Shown: positions 9,846 to 23,590, counted from the first letter of the stretch. The stretch: DNA of 64,000 nt from a virus (IMGVR_UViG_3300020048_000032:19147-83146); one strand, 5' to 3'. Notes: generated from the sequence alone by a model not told the origin. Translations and numbers: made by a program.

Positions 9846-10901
9846 CTACTCCTTATTTTTCATTAAGAACTCTGGACTAACCGCTTTAAATGAACGCACT
9901 AGTCTACCAAAATCATCATATTGTCTAAACACTAGACCCTCTGCTAAGACATCCTTGTTTAGCGTAGATGGATAAGTTGCCATCTCTAAGATGTCATCAA
10001 CTTGTTTATCCTTAATATTAACCCAAGGGAATCTCACCGGGACATTCATAATATACTCATGCCCATTAAAGTTAGGTTGTTCTAGTGCAAGGCTTACACC
10101 ATCAATAATAAAATTAAACATATAAAATCTAATGTCGTCCAAGCCATACTTATTACCTTGAATCTTTGGTCCTATAATCTCACCTTGGATAACAACGGTC
10201 TTTGCACTAGTAGTTCTAGCAAACGACGTTAGGACACCTTTAATATTATATTTTACAGCAATCTTTGCCCAAATATTATCTTCATCATAAATACGATTGT
10301 TTCTAGAACAAATAATAAATTCATTATCCTTAAGTGCATAAGTAGCAGATGAACCATCTAGTTTTTCTGTAGCGGTCCAGCCACCATCTTCTTTAAGAAA
10401 CGCTGTATTATTTTGAATGCGGTCTTCGTCTGTTTTACGAATCCACCCAGGCCAATTAGATGTAACCTTTTTTCTAGAGATAGTCTTCTTGAATAGTTTT
10501 CTAAACCAAAGATATCTCATCATAAAAGAAAACAGTCTGCCTAACAGAGTCTTGCGTACTTCTACTTCTTTGTTATATTGTATGATGCCTAATTCTTTAG
10601 TAACATCATCACCAAGCTTATGCTTCTTCTTTAGGATACTAAGAGGGAACACAATTCCCTCGCTTCTTACCCCGGACATTTTCATAGTTTTAATAATATA
10701 ACGTTTTGATTCAAGAAACTTAAATTCTTCTTTAGGTGGAAGTTGACTATCAATTTCCACGTAAACACATAGGTCACCATTTTGAAACTGCCCCTTGACC
10801 ACAATAACATTCCAACCATCAACTTTAACTTGCTCGATACGGTCTTTACCTTCAATAGGGCGAATGTCACTAACTTGTCTAATTGTTGCTAGCTTTCTCA
10901 T
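9846..10901 (-). CDS. ATP-dependent RNA ligase (Rnl-type nucleotidyltransferase)
   Basis: Ligase motif I KxDG in TEKLDGSSATYAL; N-terminal MRKLATIRQV...VDGWNVIVVKG domain as in phage/bacterial RNA ligases. Confidence 0.6.
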   Translation of the reverse strand: MRKLATIRQVSDIRPIEGKDRIEQVKVDGWNVIVVKGQFQNGDLCVYVEIDSQLPPKEEFKFLESKRYIIKTMKMSGVRSEGIVFPLSILKKKHKLGDDVTKELGIIQYNKEVEVRKTLLGRLFSFMMRYLWFRKLFKKTISRKKVTSNWPGWIRKTDEDRIQNNTAFLKEDGGWTATEKLDGSSATYALKDNEFIICSRNNRIYDEDNIWAKIAVKYNIKGVLTSFARTTSAKTVVIQGEIIGPKIQGNKYGLDDIRFYMFNFIIDGVSLALEQPNFNGHEYIMNVPVRFPWVNIKDKQVDDILEMATYPSTLNKDVLAEGLVFRQYDDFGRLVRSFKAVSPEFLMKNKE

Positions 10902-13917: not shown

Positions 13918-14718
13918 TTATTCTTTTGTAAACTCTTCTTCTATACTTTTTTTAACTATCTGTTTAATTAGGTCATTTACTTTATAGAGAGTAGTACCTT
14001 CAATTGGATAAAGGACTTCCTGTTCTTGCTTTTCCCTCTTCAACTTTTCAATTAAATATTTTGCAGCTTCTTCTGCCTCGTCTAAAGTTAACTTACCTAC
14101 CTTAATGTCCAGCATACTATCACGCGCTGGGCCTTCTGAAAACCACAGGCTGTTTGTAAAGCTTATTCCCATTACTAGTCTATCCATCATGTGAGATAAT
14201 CTTGCAATGTGATGTAGCTGCTTTGGGTCATAGCCAAACTTTTCTATTTTCTCGAGCGTGGCTGGATACGGATGCTTCAGGGCCTTCTGTTTCTCTAAGG
14301 CCATACCATATATACATTTTATTAAAAGTGCCTTACGGTCGCTTACAATGTCCGGTAGGAAGTCTCTAATTTGTTTCCATTCATCTGAATAATCAGTAAC
14401 GAAAATATTACTGGCTAGGAGTTCCAAGTAACTCGGATTCGCTTTAGCCAGTAACTCTTCTAACAACCTAACATCTTTGATTTCTACTTGGCCCCAATCT
14501 GTCTTAATAACTTTTGAGACCATTTTATTAGTATAAATATCATCGAAGTCTGGCAAGACAAAAGCCTTGCAATCAATATCAGAGGAGTAGTCTGGACTGT
14601 AGATATCTAAATTATAGTTCTGAGACCCGTGTAAAACTATTACGAATACTTTGTACCCGTCTGCTTTTAAGTCACATGTGACCTTGGCTAGAACGCCTAT
14701 AATTTCTTTCTTATTCAT
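13918..14718 (-). CDS. Pol-beta superfamily nucleotidyltransferase (RNA-repair-associated type; possible CCA/tRNA nucleotidyltransferase role)
   Basis: Motif LHGSQNYNLDIYSPDYSSDIDCKAF (hG[GS]...DxD); class-2 promoter upstream. Confidence 0.45.
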   Translation of the reverse strand: MNKKEIIGVLAKVTCDLKADGYKVFVIVLHGSQNYNLDIYSPDYSSDIDCKAFVLPDFDDIYTNKMVSKVIKTDWGQVEIKDVRLLEELLAKANPSYLELLASNIFVTDYSDEWKQIRDFLPDIVSDRKALLIKCIYGMALEKQKALKHPYPATLEKIEKFGYDPKQLHHIARLSHMMDRLVMGISFTNSLWFSEGPARDSMLDIKVGKLTLDEAEEAAKYLIEKLKREKQEQEVLYPIEGTTLYKVNDLIKQIVKKSIEEEFTKE

Positions 14719-14769: not shown

Positions 14770-14803
14770 ACTACATAAAAAGAATCTAAGTTAATTTACT
14801 TTG
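14770..14803 (-). promoter_or_regulatory. promoter class 2 (TAACTT, 15 nt, AG, TATTTATTTA)
   Basis: Aligned copy. Confidence 0.5.
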
Positions 14804-15335
14804 TTCCTTTTTTGTCTGTACGTTTTCTAAACAAATATGCAGCAATAATAATTAGTACTAAAATCCAAAACGGAATTGTGCCTATCATAAACCACATCCA
14901 ACCTCCACCACAGAAGGTACAGACAAGTTTATCAACGTAAACAATTTTTTCGACAACTTTATCCACATAAATAATTTTATCTACTAAAATTTCTTTAGTA
15001 ATAATTTTATCAACATAAACAGTTTTAACTACCTCTTTGTCTACATATACAATTTTATCTACATAGATGTTTTTAATTACTTCTTTGTCGACATAGATAA
15101 GCTTGTCCACATAAATGGTCTTAATGACTTCTTTATCTATATATACAATCTTGTCTACATAGATAATTTTTGGTTCACATGTACATTTTGGGTCATCATG
15201 ATGGTTACTGCCATCATTATGTACATTTTCATTATGGTTACAATTATCATTGTCATGGGCACTAACATTTGCGGCCGGTGCAAACAATAACAGCACAACT
15301 ACAGAAAGCAGTAGTATACTAACTAATTTTTTCAT
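14796..15335 (-). CDS. secreted, membrane-anchored tandem-repeat protein (signal peptide; His/Asp/Asn-rich segment; about 9 YVDK repeats; C-terminal TM helix)
   Basis: MKKLVSILLLSVVVLLLFAPAANVSA signal; HDNDNCNHNENVHNDGSNHHDD; repeats YVDKIVYIDKEVIKTI; the DNA carries 48-nt tandem repeats at about 14935-15175; C-terminal WMWFMIGTIPFWILVLIIIAAYLFRKR. Confidence 0.6.
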   Translation of the reverse strand: MKKLVSILLLSVVVLLLFAPAANVSAHDNDNCNHNENVHNDGSNHHDDPKCTCEPKIIYVDKIVYIDKEVIKTIYVDKLIYVDKEVIKNIYVDKIVYVDKEVVKTVYVDKIITKEILVDKIIYVDKVVEKIVYVDKLVCTFCGGGWMWFMIGTIPFWILVLIIIAAYLFRKRTDKKGTK

Positions 15336-15434
15336 TATGAGTCCTCCTTTTGGACAGAAGGTCGGTTACACTATTAGCTTCATATTGTTCAAGTGTCCAT
15401 ATACAAACAATACTTCATCGCGTCCAATTTATAC

Positions 15435-15743: not shown

Positions 15744-16331
15744 CTACTGTTTTGTCTGTACCTTGCCTGCTCTTGGGCCACGGATAACACCTTTTTGAGC
15801 AGCAGATATTCTTGCTCGGTGTTCTTCTGAAAATGGAGGAAGTTTTCGCCCTGTTAATGCTTTTGATAGGTTCTTTTTATGCACTTCCGACCTAGGTGCT
15901 CGCTTAACCCCGGTATGAGCAATTGACATCTTCTCTTTTGTTTTATCTGAATGACATTTGCCTTTCATCCAGGGTACTTGACCTTTATTAGATAAAGATG
16001 CTTTTAATTTAGATTCTTCTGAATGAGCGGCATACTCTCCACCTGTTGTAGAATTATATCCAAACTCATAATTAGTAGAATTATGTTCTGCAATCAGCTT
16101 AATTTCAAGTGCACAGGCATCTTCTTTTGTTAAGCCAGATGCTATAATCTCATGCTGTACATTTTCCCAACTATACTTCTGGATAGCCCTAGCTAAATTT
16201 GGCTGACTAACCTCTTTGTATTTATTACCAAAAGTTCCCCACCTGCTTGTTGGTATTTTTGCCCCAGTTAATCCTATATAAACTTTTCCATTAGGAAATG
16301 TATGTTTATAGACTACATAAGATTTAATCAT
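15744..16331 (-). CDS. GIY-YIG homing endonuclease with NUMOD3-like DNA-binding repeats
   Basis: YVVYKHTFPNGKVYIGLT (GIY...YIG); repeats GKCHSDKTKEKMSIAHTG, RSEVHKKNLSKALTG, FSEEHRARISAAQKG. Confidence 0.75.
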   Translation of the reverse strand: MIKSYVVYKHTFPNGKVYIGLTGAKIPTSRWGTFGNKYKEVSQPNLARAIQKYSWENVQHEIIASGLTKEDACALEIKLIAEHNSTNYEFGYNSTTGGEYAAHSEESKLKASLSNKGQVPWMKGKCHSDKTKEKMSIAHTGVKRAPRSEVHKKNLSKALTGRKLPPFSEEHRARISAAQKGVIRGPRAGKVQTKQ

Positions 16332-16794
16332 AATTTACCTCCAAATTTTCTTTCCTAAACAATATTTATATTAGATACTTATGTTTAATTGGTCCGCTCA
16401 GAAGAACTTGAATCCTCAACCTTCTCGTTCGAAGCGAGCTGCACTATTCAATTGTGCTATAGGCGTATAGAAGTCCCCCTAACGCGCAACACTATCCCTT
16501 TGATATAAGGTCGTGTCAGATGCACCAGAAGCAGAGTTCTTTCATCTGCCGAAGGACTATATTGAATCTGGTTACCGCTTGCCTTGGTAATATCGTTTAT
16601 CCAAGACGCTCTAAATCTTAGTATGTCGCCAAACATACCATTACTGTCAATTAGTGGAGTAGCACATTTTTCAATTGTTAGTGGTCAACCGAAATCGTCA
16701 CTTGTTTTATGTCTGGACGCCAGATGGCAGAGTACTCCCAACTCTTCCCGATAGTTTTAATGGCACTATCTACGCCCATAGATTTATTTGGTGG

Positions 16795-16830
16795 AGCTGA
16801 CGAGAATCGAACTCGTGTTAGTTACTGTGC
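16795..16830 (-). ncRNA. tRNA-Ala/tmRNA-like 3' terminal module (T-arm CGAG-TTCGATT-CTCG, then CAGCTCC-A-CCA) with no canonical 5' partner nearby
   Basis: Minus strand reads ...ACGAGTTCGATTCTCGTCAGCTCCACCA. Confidence 0.35.
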
Positions 16831-17232
16831 TGGCTCTATACATTCGTACTTACAGCACTACTAGTATAGACACCGTGCGTTGTAACTCTGACCATGACAA
16901 CCCCATAAGTTGAGCAGTTAGATAGCATGCTCAGGCTTTCTCACCCTGGTAATTCGCAATACCAGAATCGGTAAGTAAGTATCTTCGTCAAGACTTACTT
17001 ATCTTATGGTTTCTCGTCGACTGCAACCATCAAACTCCGACTGCCCCTTGACCATATACTTTAACTAGGGTAAGTGCCTGTAAGTACTGTTGGATTCGAA
17101 CCAACGGCTCAGCCATTACCAATCAACGATAACTCGTTAACTCGTAATGATGAATACCGATATGTGCCTCGGTATAACGGCTAACTGTCTAGCCAGTTAT
17201 ATTTATAGTGCATACTGGTTAGCACATAGTTT

Positions 17233-17360
17233 TCTTCCAGTAAGGATTTGCACCTTACACGATTGTCGACCAAACACAATAACTCCATATACGTTTATTG
17301 TGAGTCACCAGTATGAACCATCGTTCAAGCCTGTGTGTCTACCTATTCCACCATGGAAGA
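17233..17360 (-). ncRNA. tRNA-like structured RNA element, copy E2
   Basis: Closing stem TCTTCCA/TGGAAGA (compensatory relative to E1); GTG-GAATAGGTAGA-CAC; hairpin GTAAGG-TGCAAAT-CCTTAC. Confidence 0.5.
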
Positions 17361-17529
17361 ATCTTAGCTCCCACTTACTGGTAGGGTACACCATATCTAG
17401 TAGGTTGGCTATGTCCCTACATCTCTTTAAGACCACTGTATTCTTCGATGTATGCGTTGAAAGTATTCTCCGTAATAAGCGTTGTTGATTCGTGGTGTGG
17501 CAGCTGCCTGTTCTGCCCTTAGATAAATA

Positions 17530-17643
17530 TTTCTTGGCAAGGAATCGTCACCTTGCACTGCTGTCCTAATTGGTGTTCACCGTCCCAGCACACCAGCAAA
17601 ATTGAACCAAACCTGTTGCGTCTCACTTTTCCGCCACAAGAAA
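17530..17643 (-). ncRNA. tRNA-like structured RNA element, copy E3 (divergent)
   Basis: Closing stem TTTCTTG/CAAGAAA; GCG-GAAAAGTGAGA-CGC; hairpin GCAAGG-TGACGATT-CCTTGC. Confidence 0.4.
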
Positions 17644-19191
17644 TATTAATGTAGGCGTTCCAATCCTACTTCCGTCGCTGGCTTACTCAATCCTATAAGA
17701 GTTACCTTGGCGTTATCGACGAACCTTTCGGGTGTTTCCCAACTCCTGGATGGTTATCCGATTCTGTCGCATACTGGCATATGCATTGAACTTTGTTACA
17801 TACTCTCCATATGTAGTCCAACTAGAGACTCTTTTTTCGTAAAGAAAGAGCCTTAAACGTTAAAATGGTCTGGATTATTTATCACTATTCTAGCATGGCG
17901 CTAGCGCCATGCCGCCATACAGGGGCGGAGGGAGCCAATGTCGAACCTTACTCTATCCATCATTCGAGTTCGTGGCATCGGGAATTTTAGCTCTACCCGT
18001 AAGAGTACTAGTTATAGGTTTATCGTCTCCAGACCGACTAGATAGCATACTATCATCTGACCTAGTTTCCGTCTCATAGGCTGACAGTGAATACTTACGT
18101 TTCACATGAAAGGATTGCTCCCTTATTCTGGTTGATTACGAGCCATAACTCGCTTTCGCCCGCGCATTTACGAGCCCTAGGTTGCTGGTTTAGCGACACG
18201 GCTTGTCGGATAGTCTGTGGATTGTGGCCACATTCTCATCATGATGGTGTATGCACTCTCCCTTTAAACTCAAGCTTCATGAGTACCATCACTAATACCG
18301 TTCTCTTTGGCACACGGTAACACTGTGCGATTGGCAATACCGCCTATTTCACTGTCGTCGGGTAAGCAACGTATAGTTCTTAAGGAACCACAAATTAAAT
18401 CGCGATTAATCTGCAGTCCCTCATCCCGCTCATACGTCAGGATTGCCACAGCGAACTATAAAGTCTTATCTTCTAGTGGTATCTATACGAAGATATCGTG
18501 GTGTAGATTTTGTTTACGTGTTCCTCGCGAGTCTACGCTTTTTTGTCCTACAAACACTAGCCTTATTCTGTAGCTTAACATAATACGCTTCTTAGGGCGT
18601 CAAATTTGCTCCCTTTTCTGGAAGACTTTCGCTCGTTTTTGAGACCATACTCACATGGTTAGTGAGAACTAATAGACCTTGCGAGGTTATAGTATTGGCC
18701 ATAGAGTGAGCATTTTTATAACTTGCTCAGGTTAACACATTTTATATATACCCCGTACTAGATAGAGGAGCTGCCCTTGATGTTACTCCAGGGAAACAGC
18801 AGTGTATTGGTAGTTTTTAGACGTGTCCGGTCTTGTATATTACCACATAGTGGTTTATACCAATTTAGGTACCAACTGTCGGACTTGCACCGACATCCCC
18901 CGTGGTCATCGCCCATATTGAGTGGACGACTACTGACAGGGCCTCTGCTAATTGATAAGTAGGTTGGTATAATGATGGTTCCGCCTGCGGTTTTACGCAT
19001 ACTGTAGCGACGCCTATTGAAGGTCGTTAGTCTTCTGTCTCTGGATTAACAGTCCAGTATGTTACTTTACACTATTTAGGTTTTTCAAGTGGCGAAACCG
19101 TGAAGTAGTAAATGGATTTTGTCGAGAGGTTTGCTCCGGAGCTACTCAGTTTTGTTCCATTTCACGCGGCCATTATAACGACCGCATATTA

Positions 19192-19845
19192 TTAGTCTAC
19201 TTTTTCGAATACATCTAAAACATATCCTAAAGCATCTTTCTTACGGGTATTCCTTAATAGGATACTCTCATCTATTTTAATCTTTCCATTCTCATCGGTT
19301 ACTACATCATTGCGACCTGTAACAGTAAATAAATATTCTCTAGCATACCATTCTTCCAAGAAATGATAATTCTCTTTTGGCAACCTGCCTACAATATTTG
19401 CAGGCGTATGCTCTGGAACAGGTTTATAATCTACTACAGCAATTGATACGTTTAAGTGATTCCTACTGTCCAGCTTAGCACCATGAATATGACCATGGAT
19501 ATTTAATACTGAGTCATTAACCTTGATGGGTTCGTGACTAAGCACAATGCGTTTAGTAAAATAAATAGGTCTATCATGCACTTCTGTAAAATAAGTATAG
19601 TACTCATTAATAGGCCTGTTGTCATGATTTCCCATAATAAGAATTTTCCTGCCATTCAATTTGCGAACATTTTCTGCTTCGCCTATATCACCTAGGATAT
19701 AGAGTACATCATTTAATTTAACTACTTTATTAATTTGTTCTATAATAAAATTGTCATGTTCTTGAATTGTTGAAAACTGCGTTCTCTCGAACTTTAAAAT
19801 ATTAGCATGACCGAAGTGAAGGTCAGAGATAAAGTATGTGTTCAT
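19192..19845 (-). CDS. calcineurin-like metallophosphoesterase (candidate end-healing phosphoesterase for RNA repair)
   Basis: Motifs SDLHFGH, LGDIGE, MGNHDN, HGHIHG. Confidence 0.7.
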   Translation of the reverse strand: MNTYFISDLHFGHANILKFERTQFSTIQEHDNFIIEQINKVVKLNDVLYILGDIGEAENVRKLNGRKILIMGNHDNRPINEYYTYFTEVHDRPIYFTKRIVLSHEPIKVNDSVLNIHGHIHGAKLDSRNHLNVSIAVVDYKPVPEHTPANIVGRLPKENYHFLEEWYAREYLFTVTGRNDVVTDENGKIKIDESILLRNTRKKDALGYVLDVFEKVD

Positions 19846-19867
19846 GTGACCTCCTATAGGTGTTCTG

Positions 19868-21058
19868 TTAGTCTTGTGCTTTATAATTAAATAACGTTTT
19901 AAGATGTGTTACTACTTCATATTGCTCAGACACCAACTTCTTAATTTCTTCCGCTGGTTTATATGCATCTGGTGCTTCATCCAAAGTACTTTCATTTACA
20001 GAAGCTGACCAAATGTCTTTCATAGTTTCTTTGAAGTCTTCTACGTTCAAGGTTTTCTTAGCAGTAGACCTGCTCATGGTTCTACCCGCACCATGGGGCG
20101 CAGAATTGTTCCAGGTGAGGTTTTCTTTACCCTGGCATATTAACGTGCCGTCTCTCATATTAAGAGGAACCAGGAATAACCCCGAGGCTCTAATAGCACC
20201 CTTACGAAGAATCATTTCATTGAAATCAATATAGTTATGTACTGATTCAATTTTTTGTCCGACTATCCAACCCATTTTATTAAAAATAGTTTCAGCAATC
20301 ATTCTTCTATTTTTGTAAGCAAACATCTGCGCAATCTCCAAATCATTAAGGTAAGCACCCATTTCAGTTCCTGTTAAAAACGCTAAGTCTTTACTTTGGT
20401 TTAATTCATCTTCGTGAGCTTCCTTATAAGCTTTAACTTCTCTTTCAATTTCTTGAGCTTTGCCTTCTACTTTTAATCTTGCGATTAATGCCTGTACTCC
20501 AGAATTCTTAACTAAGTCTTCTGCTTTATCTTGATGATGACGCGCTACCTGTAAGCCCAGGTTTCTCGAACCTGTATGGATAATCAAGTAATGATTTGTC
20601 CCATCCGATTCAACAGAAATAAAGTGGTTTCCTCCTCCAAGAGTACCCATAGAACATTTAATTCTACTTGCTGTCTTCGCGGGCAAAGGAGTAGATAATC
20701 CAGCTAATAAGAATCCTACATCAAAATTCTCTACTTCGTGTACCTGCATTCCTGATGGTATGTAATTGTTTATTACGGATTGTAGCTGTTCAAAATCAAT
20801 ATCCTGGGCAGGAATCTTATATGCAACTACACCACAGCCAATATCAACACCAATTAAATTTGGTACAATACGGTCTGTAATAGTCATAGTTGTTCCAATA
20901 ACACAACCAGCTCCTGCATGGACATCTGGCATAATAACAATATTTGAATTCAAAGAAGCAGGGTGACTAATAAGTCTTGCAATTTGTGCAATGGCCTCTT
21001 GCTCAATGTTATCAGTTGTAACTAATGCATTAGCGTATTTTCCTTTTAGTTCAAACAT
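19868..21058 (-). CDS. rtcB: RtcB-family RNA ligase (3'-phosphate/5'-hydroxyl)
   Basis: 396 aa; GGNHF motif, metal-binding His/Cys pattern, C-terminal NSAPHGAGR. Confidence 0.85.
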   Translation of the reverse strand: MFELKGKYANALVTTDNIEQEAIAQIARLISHPASLNSNIVIMPDVHAGAGCVIGTTMTITDRIVPNLIGVDIGCGVVAYKIPAQDIDFEQLQSVINNYIPSGMQVHEVENFDVGFLLAGLSTPLPAKTASRIKCSMGTLGGGNHFISVESDGTNHYLIIHTGSRNLGLQVARHHQDKAEDLVKNSGVQALIARLKVEGKAQEIEREVKAYKEAHEDELNQSKDLAFLTGTEMGAYLNDLEIAQMFAYKNRRMIAETIFNKMGWIVGQKIESVHNYIDFNEMILRKGAIRASGLFLVPLNMRDGTLICQGKENLTWNNSAPHGAGRTMSRSTAKKTLNVEDFKETMKDIWSASVNESTLDEAPDAYKPAEEIKKLVSEQYEVVTHLKTLFNYKAQD

Positions 21059-23203: not shown

Positions 23204-23381
23204 ACCTATATAATACTTGCAAATATTATACAGAACCATTAAATCTTATTGCCCTCAGTAAGTGTGCATTGTTAAGAGGCATCTGAGGTACTGTCAATAC
23301 TGAGCAACCAGCGGGACTTTAACCCACATTCTCCACACAATCACACGTGTGCCATTCTAATTAAAATATGGTTGCATAAGT

Positions 23382-23460
23382 TGGACGAGGAAGGAGTTGA
23401 ACCTTCATACCTAAACTTGTTAACTGAGCACTCAACGCTTTACCCTTAAGCTACTCGTCC
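23382..23460 (-). ncRNA. tRNA-like gene with aberrant anticodon arm (pseudo-tRNA or non-canonical tRNA)
   Basis: Perfect acceptor GGACGAG/CTCGTCC, D-arm GCTT-AAGGGTA-AAGC and T-arm GAAGG-TTCAACT-CCTTC, but I found no 5-bp/7-nt anticodon stem-loop. Confidence 0.35.
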
Positions 23461-23590
23461 ATATGATGCCTGTTGTTTAAACAGGGAGGCATCACCCTAT
23501 GCCACAATTGTTACTGACGGAATGTGGGAAACCAATGTCATGAATCATCAGTTTAATTAGGAGATGAAACTGATAAAGAACCTTAAAATT

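What the first reader, a model, noticed from the sequence alone, without database searches (positions are those of the whole stretch)
16795..17049. tRNA-Ala/tmRNA-like 3' terminus with a candidate G3:U70 acceptor partner about 250 nt upstream
The minus strand ends a structured stretch with ...ACGAG-TTCGATT-CTCGT-CAGCTCC-A-CCA. That is a canonical T-arm followed by the acceptor 3' strand and encoded CCA, identical in its last 11 nt to the E. coli tmRNA/tRNA-Ala terminus. There is no GGAGCTG about 70 nt upstream, so it is not a normal tRNA. About 250 nt upstream (plus 17043-17049) the minus strand reads GGGGCAG followed by TCGGAGTTTGATGG.... This would pair with CAGCTCC including a G3:U70 wobble, the alanine identity element, but with one A:A mismatch at pair 6:67. 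A short tmRNA-like molecule or a tRNA-Ala-like gene with a large insertion are both possible. I could not find a convincing tag reading frame ending in ...AA plus stop, so this stays speculative.
Basis: partly seen in the sequence, partly recalled or inferred. Interest (0 to 1): 0.6.

Follow-up and report, generated by a model that had tools for sequence, protein, structure and literature searches.

The report
Phage tag-less tmRNA-like alanine RNA
A large virulent-type phage, probably of gut or rumen Clostridia, encodes a 116-nt RNA with the alanine-accepting end and overall layout of the tRNA-like part of tmRNA but no message part; it most plausibly competes with the host's ribosome-rescue RNA, and it is a divergent variant of a rare, already described kind.

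Summary
The proposed 5' partner, GGGGCAG about 250 nt upstream, is chance-level. The true partner is GGGGUUG at 16904-16898, which gives a perfect 7-bp acceptor stem with G3:U70 and a 116-nt molecule (16789-16904, minus strand).

Its layout is that of a tmRNA tRNA-like domain (TLD): acceptor stem, a 10-nt linker containing AUGG, one long helix, a 3-nt linker and the T-arm. It has no D-arm, anticodon arm, pseudoknots or convincing tag frame. Given the 3' module, this fold has a chance probability of about 0.0015.

ARAGORN calls nothing, and Rfam's tmRNA model scores 37.8 bits against a threshold of 47. TLD-only tmRNAs are already known in phages (mycobacteriophage DS6A), and I found them to be common in viral metagenomes. 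A model of that family scores its members 56-84 bits. The window's RNA scores 34.9, the same as tRNA-Ala controls (33-40), so it is not a member by profile.

Its last 30 nt match chromosomal tmRNAs of gut and rumen Clostridia exactly. No integrase or SmpB was found in the 60 ORFs scanned. The most likely role is an alanine-charged, tag-less tmRNA mimic. That role is inferred, not shown.

The parts
16789..16904 (-). Whole predicted RNA, 116 nt, from G1 to the encoded CCA
   Evidence: Rfam tmRNA hit 16789-16904, 37.8 bits, full model span. R1 46.9 bits and R2 34.9 bits, both end to end. The MFE fold gives acceptor stem, long helix and T-arm.
16898..16904 (-). Acceptor stem 5' strand GGGGUUG (RNA positions 1-7); G3 pairs with U70
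   Evidence: Pairs 7/7 with CAGCUCC. It is the only perfect partner in the 450 nt upstream; 0.085 are expected by chance.
16888..16897 (-). Single-stranded linker UCAUGGUCAG, the D-loop analogue; it keeps AUGG but lacks the conserved UUCGAC
   Evidence: Alignment to R1 and to the Rfam tmRNA consensus. Comparison with host-type tmRNAs, which read CAAUGGCUUCGAC.
16882..16887 (-). P2/H2-like helix, 5' strand AGUUAC
   Evidence: Six Watson-Crick pairs with 16820-16825, placed as in TLDs. Joint chance with the acceptor stem is 0.0015, or 0.0002 for Watson-Crick pairs only. All modelled pairs are canonical.
16826..16881 (-). 56-nt insert that continues the helix as an irregular hairpin (GGUGUCUAUAC / GUAUAGAGCC), where DS6A-type RNAs have a loop of about 19 nt
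   Evidence: Folds; on its own it is not significantly stable (z -1.3). No homologue in 50,697 phage records.
16820..16825 (-). P2/H2-like helix, 3' strand GUAACU
16817..16819 (-). 3-nt linker AAC, where tmRNAs have G-GAC
16800..16816 (-). T-arm ACGAG-UUCGAUU-CUCGU
   Evidence: Sequence. Identical to the T-arm of clostridial chromosomal tmRNAs.
16793..16799 (-). Acceptor stem 3' strand CAGCUCC (U70 at 16795)
16789..16792 (-). Discriminator A73 and encoded CCA
   Evidence: The canonical tRNA genes checked in the window also encode CCA.

Best explanation
Window 16789-16904 (minus strand) is a phage gene for a 116-nt tRNA-like RNA. It is built on the plan of the tRNA-like domain (TLD) of tmRNA and lacks the mRNA-like domain.

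Shown by sequence and computation:
- A perfect 7-bp acceptor stem with G3:U70, discriminator A and an encoded CCA.
- A canonical T-arm.
- A single-stranded linker containing AUGG in place of a D-arm.
- One long helix in place of the anticodon arm, joined to the T-arm by 3 nt.

Inferred from established tRNA and tmRNA biology:
- It is cut out of a long minus-strand transcript, by RNase P at G16904 and by 3' trimming to the encoded CCA.
- The host AlaRS charges it with alanine through G3:U70 plus A73.
- EF-Tu binds it.

Most likely role (inferred, about 0.35-0.4 on its own): it acts as a tag-less tmRNA mimic that competes with the host tmRNA for SmpB, AlaRS, EF-Tu or stalled ribosomes. That would damp tagging and degradation during infection. 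This is what is reported for a TLD-only molecule modelled on mycobacteriophage DS6A.

Its T-arm and acceptor 3' strand are identical to the tmRNAs of gut and rumen Clostridia, which are the likely host group.
For: Structure: a unique 7/7 acceptor partner; acceptor plus anchored 6-bp helix, p about 0.0015; 0.0002 for Watson-Crick pairs only.

Rfam's tmRNA model beats the tRNA model at this site, scoring 37.8 bits over the full model span. ARAGORN finds no tRNA.

The last 30 nt are identical to full-length phage tmRNAs (L001, L002, L004). The last 26 nt are identical to 30 chromosomal tmRNAs with canonical tags, mostly from Clostridia.

Context: same strand as all neighbouring genes; a tRNA-Arg 323 nt downstream; RtcB, a second RNA ligase, a phosphoesterase and a nucleotidyltransferase nearby. 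The canonical tRNA genes checked in the phage also encode CCA.

Precedent: phage DS6A carries a TLD-only tmRNA, and a similar molecule strongly inhibits E. coli tmRNA, perhaps by titrating SmpB (PMC4131195, PMC11915505, both citing Mao et al. 2009). I located the DS6A RNA at JN698994 28478-28560.

Such short forms sit inside phage tRNA clusters and are common in viral metagenomes, with strong covariation support for the same architecture.

AlaRS identity rules, RNase P processing and SmpB binding at the elbow are taken from PMC3968760.
Against: Profile membership in the DS6A-type family fails. R2 scores the element 34.9 bits, against 56-84 for held-out members and 33-40 for tRNA-Ala controls with the same ends. 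The earlier R1 score of 46.9 turned out to come only from the shared acceptor stem and T-arm.

The most conserved TLD-specific motifs are altered (UUCGAC to UC--AG, GGAC to UAAC). SmpB binding needs the D-loop/T-loop elbow (PMC3968760), so SmpB binding is uncertain.

No homologue of this variant was found, so its own body has no covariation support. The closest relative, L007, lacks it.

Thermodynamic stability is only marginal (z -1.9). Expression, charging and any effect on trans-translation are untested.
Confidence: 0.5

Rival explanations
1. It is a decaying relic: a former phage tmRNA or tRNA-Ala gene that lost its interior by deletion and no longer has a function.
For: The TLD signature motifs are degraded, and the profile score equals that of tRNA-Ala controls. 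It lies in an ORF-poor stretch with other tRNA-like oddities and low-scoring tRNAs (16393-16466 at 45.5 bits, 19011-19081 at 29.3 bits). The nearest relative lacks it. The 56-nt insert is not significantly structured.
Against: Every functional element of the top half is intact: 7/7 acceptor pairs, G3:U70, A73, CCA, a 5/5 T-stem, a consensus T-loop and six Watson-Crick P2 pairs in the correct geometry. Neutral decay would be expected to break some of these first.
Confidence: 0.2
2. It is an alanine-accepting tRNA top-half RNA with a role unrelated to SmpB. Examples would be a decoy or sponge for a host factor that targets tRNAs or aminoacyl-tRNAs, or a substrate linked to the phage's RNA-repair enzymes.
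For: The tRNA-generic parts (acceptor stem, T-arm, CCA) are perfectly kept while the SmpB-related motifs are not. The neighbourhood is rich in RNA-repair genes: RtcB, an Rnl-type ligase and a phosphoesterase. T4 RNAC is an analogous tRNA-like stable RNA of unknown role in a tRNA cluster beside tRNA-Arg and a GIY-YIG endonuclease.
Against: No direct evidence for any such target. RtcB is not linked to short tmRNA-like RNAs in 20 other loci. The layout, with linkers of 10 nt and 3 nt, matches TLD geometry specifically.
Confidence: 0.15
3. It is a working miniature tmRNA with a very short tag, for example resuming at GUG-CUG-UAA in the apical loop after UAGUA, or at GCA-CGG-UGU-CUA-UAC-UAG-UAG.
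For: Both frames exist. tmRNAs with 2-residue tags are reported (PMC11915505).
Against: ARAGORN calls no tag even at relaxed settings. There is no PK1, and the candidate frames lie inside a base-paired hairpin. Neither ends in the usual hydrophobic ...AA-type C-terminus seen in the 30 host-type tmRNAs. With no homologues, conservation cannot be tested.
Confidence: 0.05
4. The 3' module is an attP-type copy of the 3' end of the host ssrA gene, used for integration or left over from it, and is not an RNA gene.
For: A 30-nt block is identical to the 3' ends of clostridial and phage tmRNA genes and stops at the CCA. tmRNA genes are frequent integration sites (PMC11915505).
Against: No integrase or recombinase was found among the 60 window ORFs scanned, and none is adjacent. 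The phage has virulent-type replication and packaging genes. An attP core needs neither a complementary 5' strand nor an anchored P2 helix (p about 0.0015).
Confidence: 0.04
5. One reading: a molecule of about 259 nt from GGGGCAG (17047) to CCA, either a short tmRNA or a tRNA-Ala with a large insertion.
For: GGGGCAG-UCGGAGUUUGAUGG faintly resembles the tmRNA 5' consensus. The 261-nt fold can close these ends.
Against: The pairing is 6/7 with an A:A mismatch, at chance frequency. No model picks this 5' end. In the 261-nt fold the inner 116-nt hairpin domain persists, and the extra 140 nt are not significantly structured. The only frame there, GCA GUC GAC GAG AAA CCA UAA, starts 23 nt from the 5' end.
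Confidence: 0.02

Closest known systems
TLD-only ('Standard, no CDS') tmRNA of mycobacteriophage DS6A (Mao et al. 2009; PMC4131195; PMC11915505), located here at JN698994 28478-28560
   Same: Phage-encoded. Acceptor stem with G3:U70 and discriminator A, a single-stranded D-loop analogue containing AUGG, one helix in place of the anticodon arm, a T-arm, and no tag or pseudoknots. DS6A also encodes RtcB.
   Different: DS6A and its roughly 80-nt relatives share conserved motifs (AUGGnUUCGAC, GGAC, and a loop like AAAnCCGCAYGCGG) and score 56-84 bits on model R2. The window's RNA is 116 nt with a 56-nt hairpin insert, lacks those motifs, and scores 34.9 bits, the same as tRNA-Ala controls. DS6A is temperate; this phage looks virulent.
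Standard one-piece bacterial tmRNA (Rfam RF00023), specifically the 350-360-nt tmRNAs of gut and rumen Clostridia
   Same: The last 30 nt are identical (T-arm, acceptor 3' strand, ACCA). The 5' start is similar (GGGGyUG..AUGG). Same alanine identity set.
   Different: No pseudoknots, no tag reading frame, about 240 nt shorter, and UUCGAC/GGAC altered. Below Rfam's gathering score and not called by ARAGORN.
CDS-less organellar tmRNAs (jakobid mitochondria, Rfam RF02544; two plastid sequences of about 65 bp)
   Same: tmRNA derivatives that keep the tRNA-like part and have lost the tag frame (PMC11915505).
   Different: Those are organellar and mostly permuted two-piece genes that co-occur with SmpB. 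There was no hit to them here.
Phage T4 RNAC / RNAD (species 1 and 2 stable RNAs)
   Same: Small RNAs of unknown role encoded in a phage tRNA cluster beside tRNA-Arg and a GIY-YIG homing endonuclease. RNAC ends in a canonical T-arm closed by an acceptor-like helix, with long hairpins in place of the D and anticodon arms.
   Different: RNAC has no G3:U70 alanine set, no perfect 7-bp acceptor stem and no encoded CCA. It has two inner hairpins rather than one, and there is no sequence similarity (R2 23 bits).
tRNA-Ala
   Same: The acceptor stem, G3:U70, A73, CCA and T-arm are of the same type. Some tRNA-Ala genes share the exact 26-nt 3' end.
   Different: No D-arm, no anticodon arm and no anticodon. 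Not called by ARAGORN, and Rfam's tRNA model scores lower than its tmRNA model here.

Membership tests
tmRNA, standard one-piece (RF00023) | 7-bp acceptor stem with G3:U70, discriminator A and a CCA end | tested here: met
   GGGGUUG/CAGCUCC pairs 7/7, with A at 16792 and CCA at 16791-16789.
tmRNA, standard one-piece (RF00023) | T-arm with a 5-bp stem and a UUCGAnU loop | tested here: met
   ACGAG-UUCGAUU-CUCGU.
tmRNA, standard one-piece (RF00023) | Reduced, stemless D-loop with the conserved ..UGGnUUCGAC, matched by GGAC 5' of the T-arm | tested here: inconclusive
   It is stemless and AUGG is present, but UUCGAC is replaced by UC--AG and GGAC by UAAC. A possible C-G to G-C flip keeps one pair.
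tmRNA, standard one-piece (RF00023) | Helix H2/P2 leaving the TLD | tested here: met
   AGUUAC/GUAACU in the right register; p about 0.0015 jointly with the acceptor stem.
tmRNA, standard one-piece (RF00023) | Pseudoknots PK1-PK4 | tested here: not met
   Only 56 nt lie inside P2, and they fold as one hairpin.
tmRNA, standard one-piece (RF00023) | Tag reading frame with a resume codon and a stop codon | tested here: not met
   ARAGORN finds no tag; only noise at a relaxed threshold. The short frames lie inside the helix and have atypical ends.
tmRNA, standard one-piece (RF00023) | Score at or above Rfam's gathering threshold | tested here: not met
   37.8 bits against 47; absent from the gathering-threshold scan.
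tmRNA, standard one-piece (RF00023) | Binds SmpB and is charged by AlaRS | not testable with these tools
   Requires biochemistry. No SmpB was found in the 60 window ORFs scanned.
DS6A-type TLD-only tmRNA | Profile (sequence plus structure) score in the family range | tested here: not met
   R2 scores held-out members and DS6A 56-84 bits, tRNA-Ala controls 33-40 bits, and the window 34.9 bits. The R1 control gave the same message.
DS6A-type TLD-only tmRNA | Length 79-85 nt with a short P2 loop carrying an AAAnCC-GCAYGCGG-like motif | tested here: not met
   116 nt, with a 56-nt hairpin insert and no such motif.
DS6A-type TLD-only tmRNA | Architecture: acceptor stem, stemless linker, a single helix, a short linker and the T-arm, with no tag | tested here: met
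   The family architecture is supported by covariation.
DS6A-type TLD-only tmRNA | Phage-encoded, on the same strand as phage tRNA genes and among them | tested here: met
   The window's tRNAs are all on the minus strand, and tRNA-Arg lies at 16393-16466. Ten of 17 short forms abut tRNAs.
tRNA-Ala | Cloverleaf with a D-arm and an anticodon arm bearing an alanine anticodon | tested here: not met
   No ARAGORN call, even with introns allowed. Rfam's tRNA hit here was lower than the tmRNA hit and was dropped in clan competition.
attP / ssrA 3' fragment | An integrase or recombinase nearby | tested here: not met
   None in the 60 window ORFs scanned. The neighbours are a GIY-YIG endonuclease, a phosphoesterase and RtcB. 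The remaining 84 kb of the 148-kb genome were not available.
attP / ssrA 3' fragment | An identity block with the 3' end of the host ssrA | tested here: met
   30 nt identical to phage tmRNA genes and 26 nt identical to clostridial tmRNA genes.

The most novel reading that the evidence does not exclude
This is the first example of a distinct class of phage RNA: an alanine-charged tRNA top half carrying a long arm that has dropped the SmpB-binding signature. On this reading it acts through something other than SmpB titration. It might be a decoy for a host defence that targets tRNAs or aminoacyl-tRNAs, or an SmpB-independent way of entering or blocking stalled ribosomes. It would be spread with its RNA island by the adjacent GIY-YIG homing endonuclease.
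Probability: 0.15. Interest if true: 0.75.

Novelty: new variant of a known kind. Interest (0 to 1): 0.45.

Why it matters
Trans-translation is the main ribosome-rescue pathway in bacteria and a drug target. A phage RNA that mimics only the tRNA-like end of tmRNA would be a natural competitor of it.

One such RNA (phage DS6A) has been described, and the 2025 tmRNA database lists only 9 tag-less standard forms among 97,179 sequences. Standard finders miss the window's RNA entirely: ARAGORN gives no call and Rfam is below threshold.

Following it up showed that DS6A-type short forms are common in viral metagenomes.

The window's RNA keeps the alanine-charging determinants but alters part of the presumed SmpB-contact region. 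It is therefore a natural test of which parts of the TLD are needed for what.

Practically, annotation pipelines would benefit from a dedicated model for tag-less tmRNA-like RNAs. Such models also need tRNA-Ala controls, because the acceptor stem and T-arm alone gave a deceptively good score here.

Tried and rejected
1. Two gapped DNA patterns were mis-specified (5 N instead of 4 between GTTCGATTC and CAGCTCC). They returned nothing and wasted two viral scans.

2. Synteny through RtcB. There were no relatives in IMG/VR. Four contigs with RtcB at 57-79% identity (L007-L010) were fetched, and none carries the element. L005 and L006 are 100% identical to the window, so they add nothing.

3. I first read the R1 score (46.9 bits, all pairs canonical) as membership of the DS6A-type family. 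The control with tRNA-Ala genes that share the same ends (42.7-47.3 bits) showed the score came from the acceptor stem and T-arm, which my training set held fixed. I withdrew that reading. A model built from sequences with varied acceptor stems (R2) then placed the element in the control range.

4. The MAFFT alignment of the 55 varied short forms I submitted (A2) put the 5' acceptor strands out of register. I replaced it with a model-guided alignment (A3).

5. ARAGORN with introns allowed and at an 80% threshold gave only noise, including a 'permuted tmRNA' whose tag frame runs through a T-arm. Rfam's permuted-tmRNA model gave E = 0.62.

6. RtcB linkage. RtcB is present in DS6A and in this phage, but not in any of 20 other loci carrying short forms, within the flanks I held. 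I dropped it as a general association.

7. Promoter and terminator scan: nothing near the element on its strand beyond chance.

8. Thermodynamics alone did not discriminate between the 116-nt and 261-nt versions (z -1.9 and -1.8).

9. Mao et al. 2009 is not in the library. Its result is quoted second-hand from PMC4131195 and PMC11915505.

10. The element's 5' 88 nt against 50,697 phage records gave only chance hits at E about 9.

Full report
**1. What is in the sequence**

On the minus strand the window reads ...ACGAG-UUCGAUU-CUCGU-CAGCUCC-A-CCA, ending at 16789.

The proposed 5' partner, GGGGCAG, lies at 17047-17041 and pairs at only 6 of 7 positions. Partners that good are expected 1.64 times per 450 nt by chance, and two are present.

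It pairs 7/7 with CAGCUCC, including G3:U70, where 0.085 such sites are expected. This gives a 116-nt molecule, 16789-16904 (minus strand).

**2. Detectors**

- ARAGORN finds 8 tRNAs in the window, all on the minus strand, and no tmRNA. It calls nothing at this site, even with introns allowed or thresholds relaxed.
- Rfam at gathering thresholds reports tRNAs, a c-di-GMP-II riboswitch and a skipping-rope RNA, but nothing here.
- A permissive local scan gives a tmRNA (RF00023) hit over exactly 16789-16904. It scores 37.8 bits against a threshold of 47, spans model positions 1-374, and replaces 269 interior model positions with 35 nt. It outscored the tRNA model in clan competition.

**3. Architecture**

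The minimum-free-energy fold has these parts:
- a 7-bp acceptor stem;
- a 10-nt single strand, UCAUGGUCAG;
- a 6-bp Watson-Crick helix, AGUUAC/GUAACU, extended by an irregular hairpin within a 56-nt insert;
- a 3-nt linker, AAC;
- a 5-bp T-arm, then A-CCA.

It has no D-arm and no anticodon arm. This is the layout of a tmRNA tRNA-like domain, in which helix H2 leaves the elbow and the D-loop has no stem (PMC3968760).

The placement is not random, however. Given the 3' module, dinucleotide shuffles of the upstream sequence produce both a perfect acceptor partner at 77-200 nt and a correctly anchored helix of at least 6 bp with probability 0.0015, or 0.0002 for all-Watson-Crick helices as observed. 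So this is a self-contained fold and not only a 3' fragment.

**4. Genome context**

The window is from a large virulent-type phage. It carries DNA polymerase, DnaB-like helicase, SbcC, GroEL, portal and terminase genes, all on the minus strand. The source is a 148-kb contig.

The element lies in an ORF-poor stretch, about 16467-18757. On one side are a tRNA-Arg (16393-16466) and a GIY-YIG homing endonuclease (15744-16331). On the other are a phosphoesterase and RtcB (19192-21058). A second RNA ligase is at 9846-10901.

I scanned 60 ORFs with PHROGs or Pfam and found no integrase, recombinase or SmpB. There is no promoter- or terminator-like site near the element on its strand beyond chance. 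That fits excision from a long transcript, as for tRNAs. The canonical tRNA genes checked in this phage also encode CCA.

**5. Relatives of the 3' module**

- The exact 26-mer occurs in four viral contigs. Three hold full-length tmRNAs (424-439 nt) inside phage tRNA clusters. The fourth, L003, holds an 81-nt molecule that passes Rfam's tmRNA threshold at 56.9 bits.
- With the T-stem left free, the pattern mostly recovers ordinary 76-nt tRNA-Ala genes and full tmRNAs. The terminus alone is therefore not diagnostic.
- In 185,579 species genomes the 26-mer ends 30 chromosomal tmRNAs, mostly of gut and rumen Clostridia: 28 are 350-377 nt with canonical tags such as ANDTELAYAA, and two (L267, L328) are the 438-nt phage-type form with a long atypical tag. 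It also ends 33 tRNA-Ala genes, mostly Omnitrophota.
- The window's RNA matches the clostridial tmRNAs over its last 30 nt, and at the 5' end in GGGGyUG..AUGG only.
- Together with the c-di-GMP-II riboswitch, this points to a clostridial host. This is an inference.

**6. The known kind**

The literature describes a TLD-only tmRNA in mycobacteriophage DS6A. [quoted passage not shown] 2009, which I could not read). The 2025 tmRNA database counts 9 'Standard, no CDS' sequences among 97,179.

I assembled such short forms from viral metagenomes:
- 15 unique sequences of 78-84 nt share the window's type of 3' end.
Of 119 complete copies, 118 have 7/7 acceptor pairing, 118 have G3:U70, all have discriminator A and 5/5 T-stems, and 77 are unique, with a modal length of 82 nt.
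- Their structure is strongly supported by covariation. 98.2% of cells are paired, 13 of 18 pairs show double changes, the covariation score is 0.736 against 0.15 in shuffles, and slid-register controls drop to 41-56% paired.
- Ten of 17 abut tRNAs on the same strand.
- A model built only from metagenomic sequences finds the DS6A RNA at JN698994 28478-28560 with 68 bits. These are therefore the DS6A type.

**7. Membership test, and a correction**

My first model (R1) scored the window's RNA 46.9 bits end to end with all pairs canonical, and I took that as membership. A control showed otherwise. tRNA-Ala genes with the same acceptor stem and T-arm score 42.7-47.3 bits on R1, because the training set held those parts fixed.

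A second model (R2), built from 100 short forms with varied acceptor stems, separates the classes cleanly:

| Class | R2 score (bits) |
|---|---|
| Held-out short forms and DS6A | 56-84 |
| tRNA-Ala controls | 33-40 |
| Window's RNA | 34.9 |

So by profile the window's RNA is not a member of the DS6A-type family. It differs in several ways:
- It lacks UUCGAC, reading UC--AG instead.
- It has UAAC where the family has GGAC.
- It lacks the loop motif AAAnCC-GCAYGCGG.
- It carries a 56-nt hairpin insert.

Some features do persist. AUGG is kept, and so is the AC just 5' of the T-stem. The linker UCAUGGUCAGAG resembles L083's CAAUGGUUAGAC at 9 of 12 positions. The C-G pair that opens P2 in the family may be flipped to G-C. 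I treat these as hints only.

**8. No homologues of this variant**

The RtcB-linked relatives lack it. The nearest, L007 (79% RtcB identity), keeps the flanking anchors, the phosphoesterase, the tRNA-Arg and a 92-aa protein. But it has about 480 nt where the window has about 1,510 nt, and it also lacks the GIY-YIG endonuclease. The RNA island and the endonuclease are thus present or absent together. The element's 5' 88 nt have no match in 50,697 phage records. Its own helices therefore have no covariation support.

**9. Mechanism**

Shown: the fold elements and the identity determinants.

Inferred from established rules (PMC3968760): RNase P makes the 5' end; G3:U70 plus A73 direct AlaRS; the acceptor/T-arm top half is what EF-Tu and the processing enzymes see.

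Most likely role: an alanine-charged, tag-less tmRNA mimic that competes with the host tmRNA, as reported for the DS6A-like molecule.

The main doubt is SmpB. SmpB binding needs the D-loop/T-loop elbow, and part of that region is altered here.

**10. Closest analogue by context**

T4 RNAC and RNAD are small stable RNAs of unknown role in the T4 tRNA cluster, beside tRNA-Arg and the GIY-YIG endonuclease segB. RNAC is strongly structured (z -4.6), with a canonical T-arm closed by an acceptor-like helix and long hairpins in place of the D and anticodon arms. It lacks the alanine identity set and has no sequence similarity to the window's RNA.

**11. Verdict**

This is a real, unannotated RNA gene of 116 nt. 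It is tmRNA-TLD-like in plan and tRNA-Ala-like in identity, and it has no tag. It is a divergent variant of a rare known kind, and its function has not been demonstrated. Interest is moderate.

The most useful by-products are two. First, DS6A-type tag-less tmRNAs are common in phage metagenomes. Second, the acceptor stem and T-arm alone can fake family membership unless tRNA-Ala controls are run.

Noticed in passing
Loci L334-L452 (IMG/VR); also L003, L014, L038, L062, L083, L246, L249, L252-L263: DS6A-type tag-less (TLD-only) tmRNAs of about 82 nt are common in viral metagenomes. Many abut tRNAs within 1-2 nt. The 2025 tmRNA database lists only 9 such forms. ARAGORN calls none of those tested.
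   Followed up: yes
window 17066-17200 (-): A strongly structured segment (MFE -45.8 kcal/mol, z -4.8, 0 of 200 shuffles as stable). It forms a multi-helix junction that includes a T-arm-like hairpin, GUUGG-UUCGAAU-CCAAC, but has no acceptor partner. No Rfam or ARAGORN match. It resembles T4 RNAC in style.
   Followed up: partly
window 17232-17362 (-): A tRNA-like piece with a perfect 7-8-bp closing stem (UCUUCCA/UGGAAGA), a D-arm-like GGUGGAAUAGGUAGACAC and a T-arm-like UAAGG-UGCAAAU-CCUUA, but about 45 extra nt inside. Not called by ARAGORN or Rfam; z only -2.1.
   Followed up: partly
window 17392-17527 (-): A skipping-rope RNA (RF02924, 51.9 bits) carrying a 54-nt insertion. It lies in the same ORF-poor RNA island as the finding.
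   Followed up: no
window 15352-15434 (-): A cyclic-di-GMP-II riboswitch aptamer (59.8 bits) in a phage, just upstream of ORF 14796-15335 (179 aa, no family match). It suggests a clostridial host and second-messenger control of a phage gene.
   Followed up: no
window 17655-17861; L009 13945-14157: A 213-nt non-coding block is 84% identical between the window and a relative whose RtcB is only 62% identical. This is far more conserved than the surrounding genes. No Rfam match.
   Followed up: no
window 15744-18038 compared with L007 3402-4018: The RNA island (about 1 kb, including the finding and the skipping-rope RNA) and the GIY-YIG homing endonuclease are both absent from the closest relative, which keeps the flanking genes and the tRNA-Arg. 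The arrangement mirrors T4's segB, tRNA-Arg, rnaD, rnaC. It suggests spread by endonuclease-driven gene conversion.
   Followed up: partly
window 23380-23461 (-): ARAGORN reports a tRNA with a four-base anticodon (gctc) and undetermined identity inside the main tRNA cluster. Rfam's tRNA model scores it 48.6 bits. It does not encode CCA. It could be a frameshift-suppressor-type tRNA or a mis-call.
   Followed up: no
window 9846-10901, 13918-14718, 19192-21058 (-): An unusually full RNA-repair set for one phage: RtcB, an Rnl-type RNA ligase with a PHA02142 OB domain, a phosphoesterase and a nucleotidyltransferase.
   Followed up: partly
L014 7371-7673 (-): ARAGORN calls a 303-nt 'tmRNA' with a repetitive tag (VPIMGLIVPIMGLIV...). 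A 78-nt TLD-only form sharing the same 3' end fits far better (66.9 bits on R2).
   Followed up: partly
L001, L002, L004 (IMG/VR); L267, L328 (MAGs): Full-length tmRNAs of 425-439 nt embedded in phage tRNA clusters, with long atypical predicted tags. They share the window's exact T-arm and acceptor 3' end. L001 and L002 also have sub-threshold YrlA (Y RNA-like) hits nearby.
   Followed up: no
L015 4156-4286 (-), from a 371-kb viral contig: Another long (131-nt) RNA with a GGGGCUG/CAGCUCC acceptor stem and a T-arm, GC-rich, that also falls in the control range on R2 (34.3 bits). It may be a second divergent tag-less form, in a jumbo phage.
   Followed up: no
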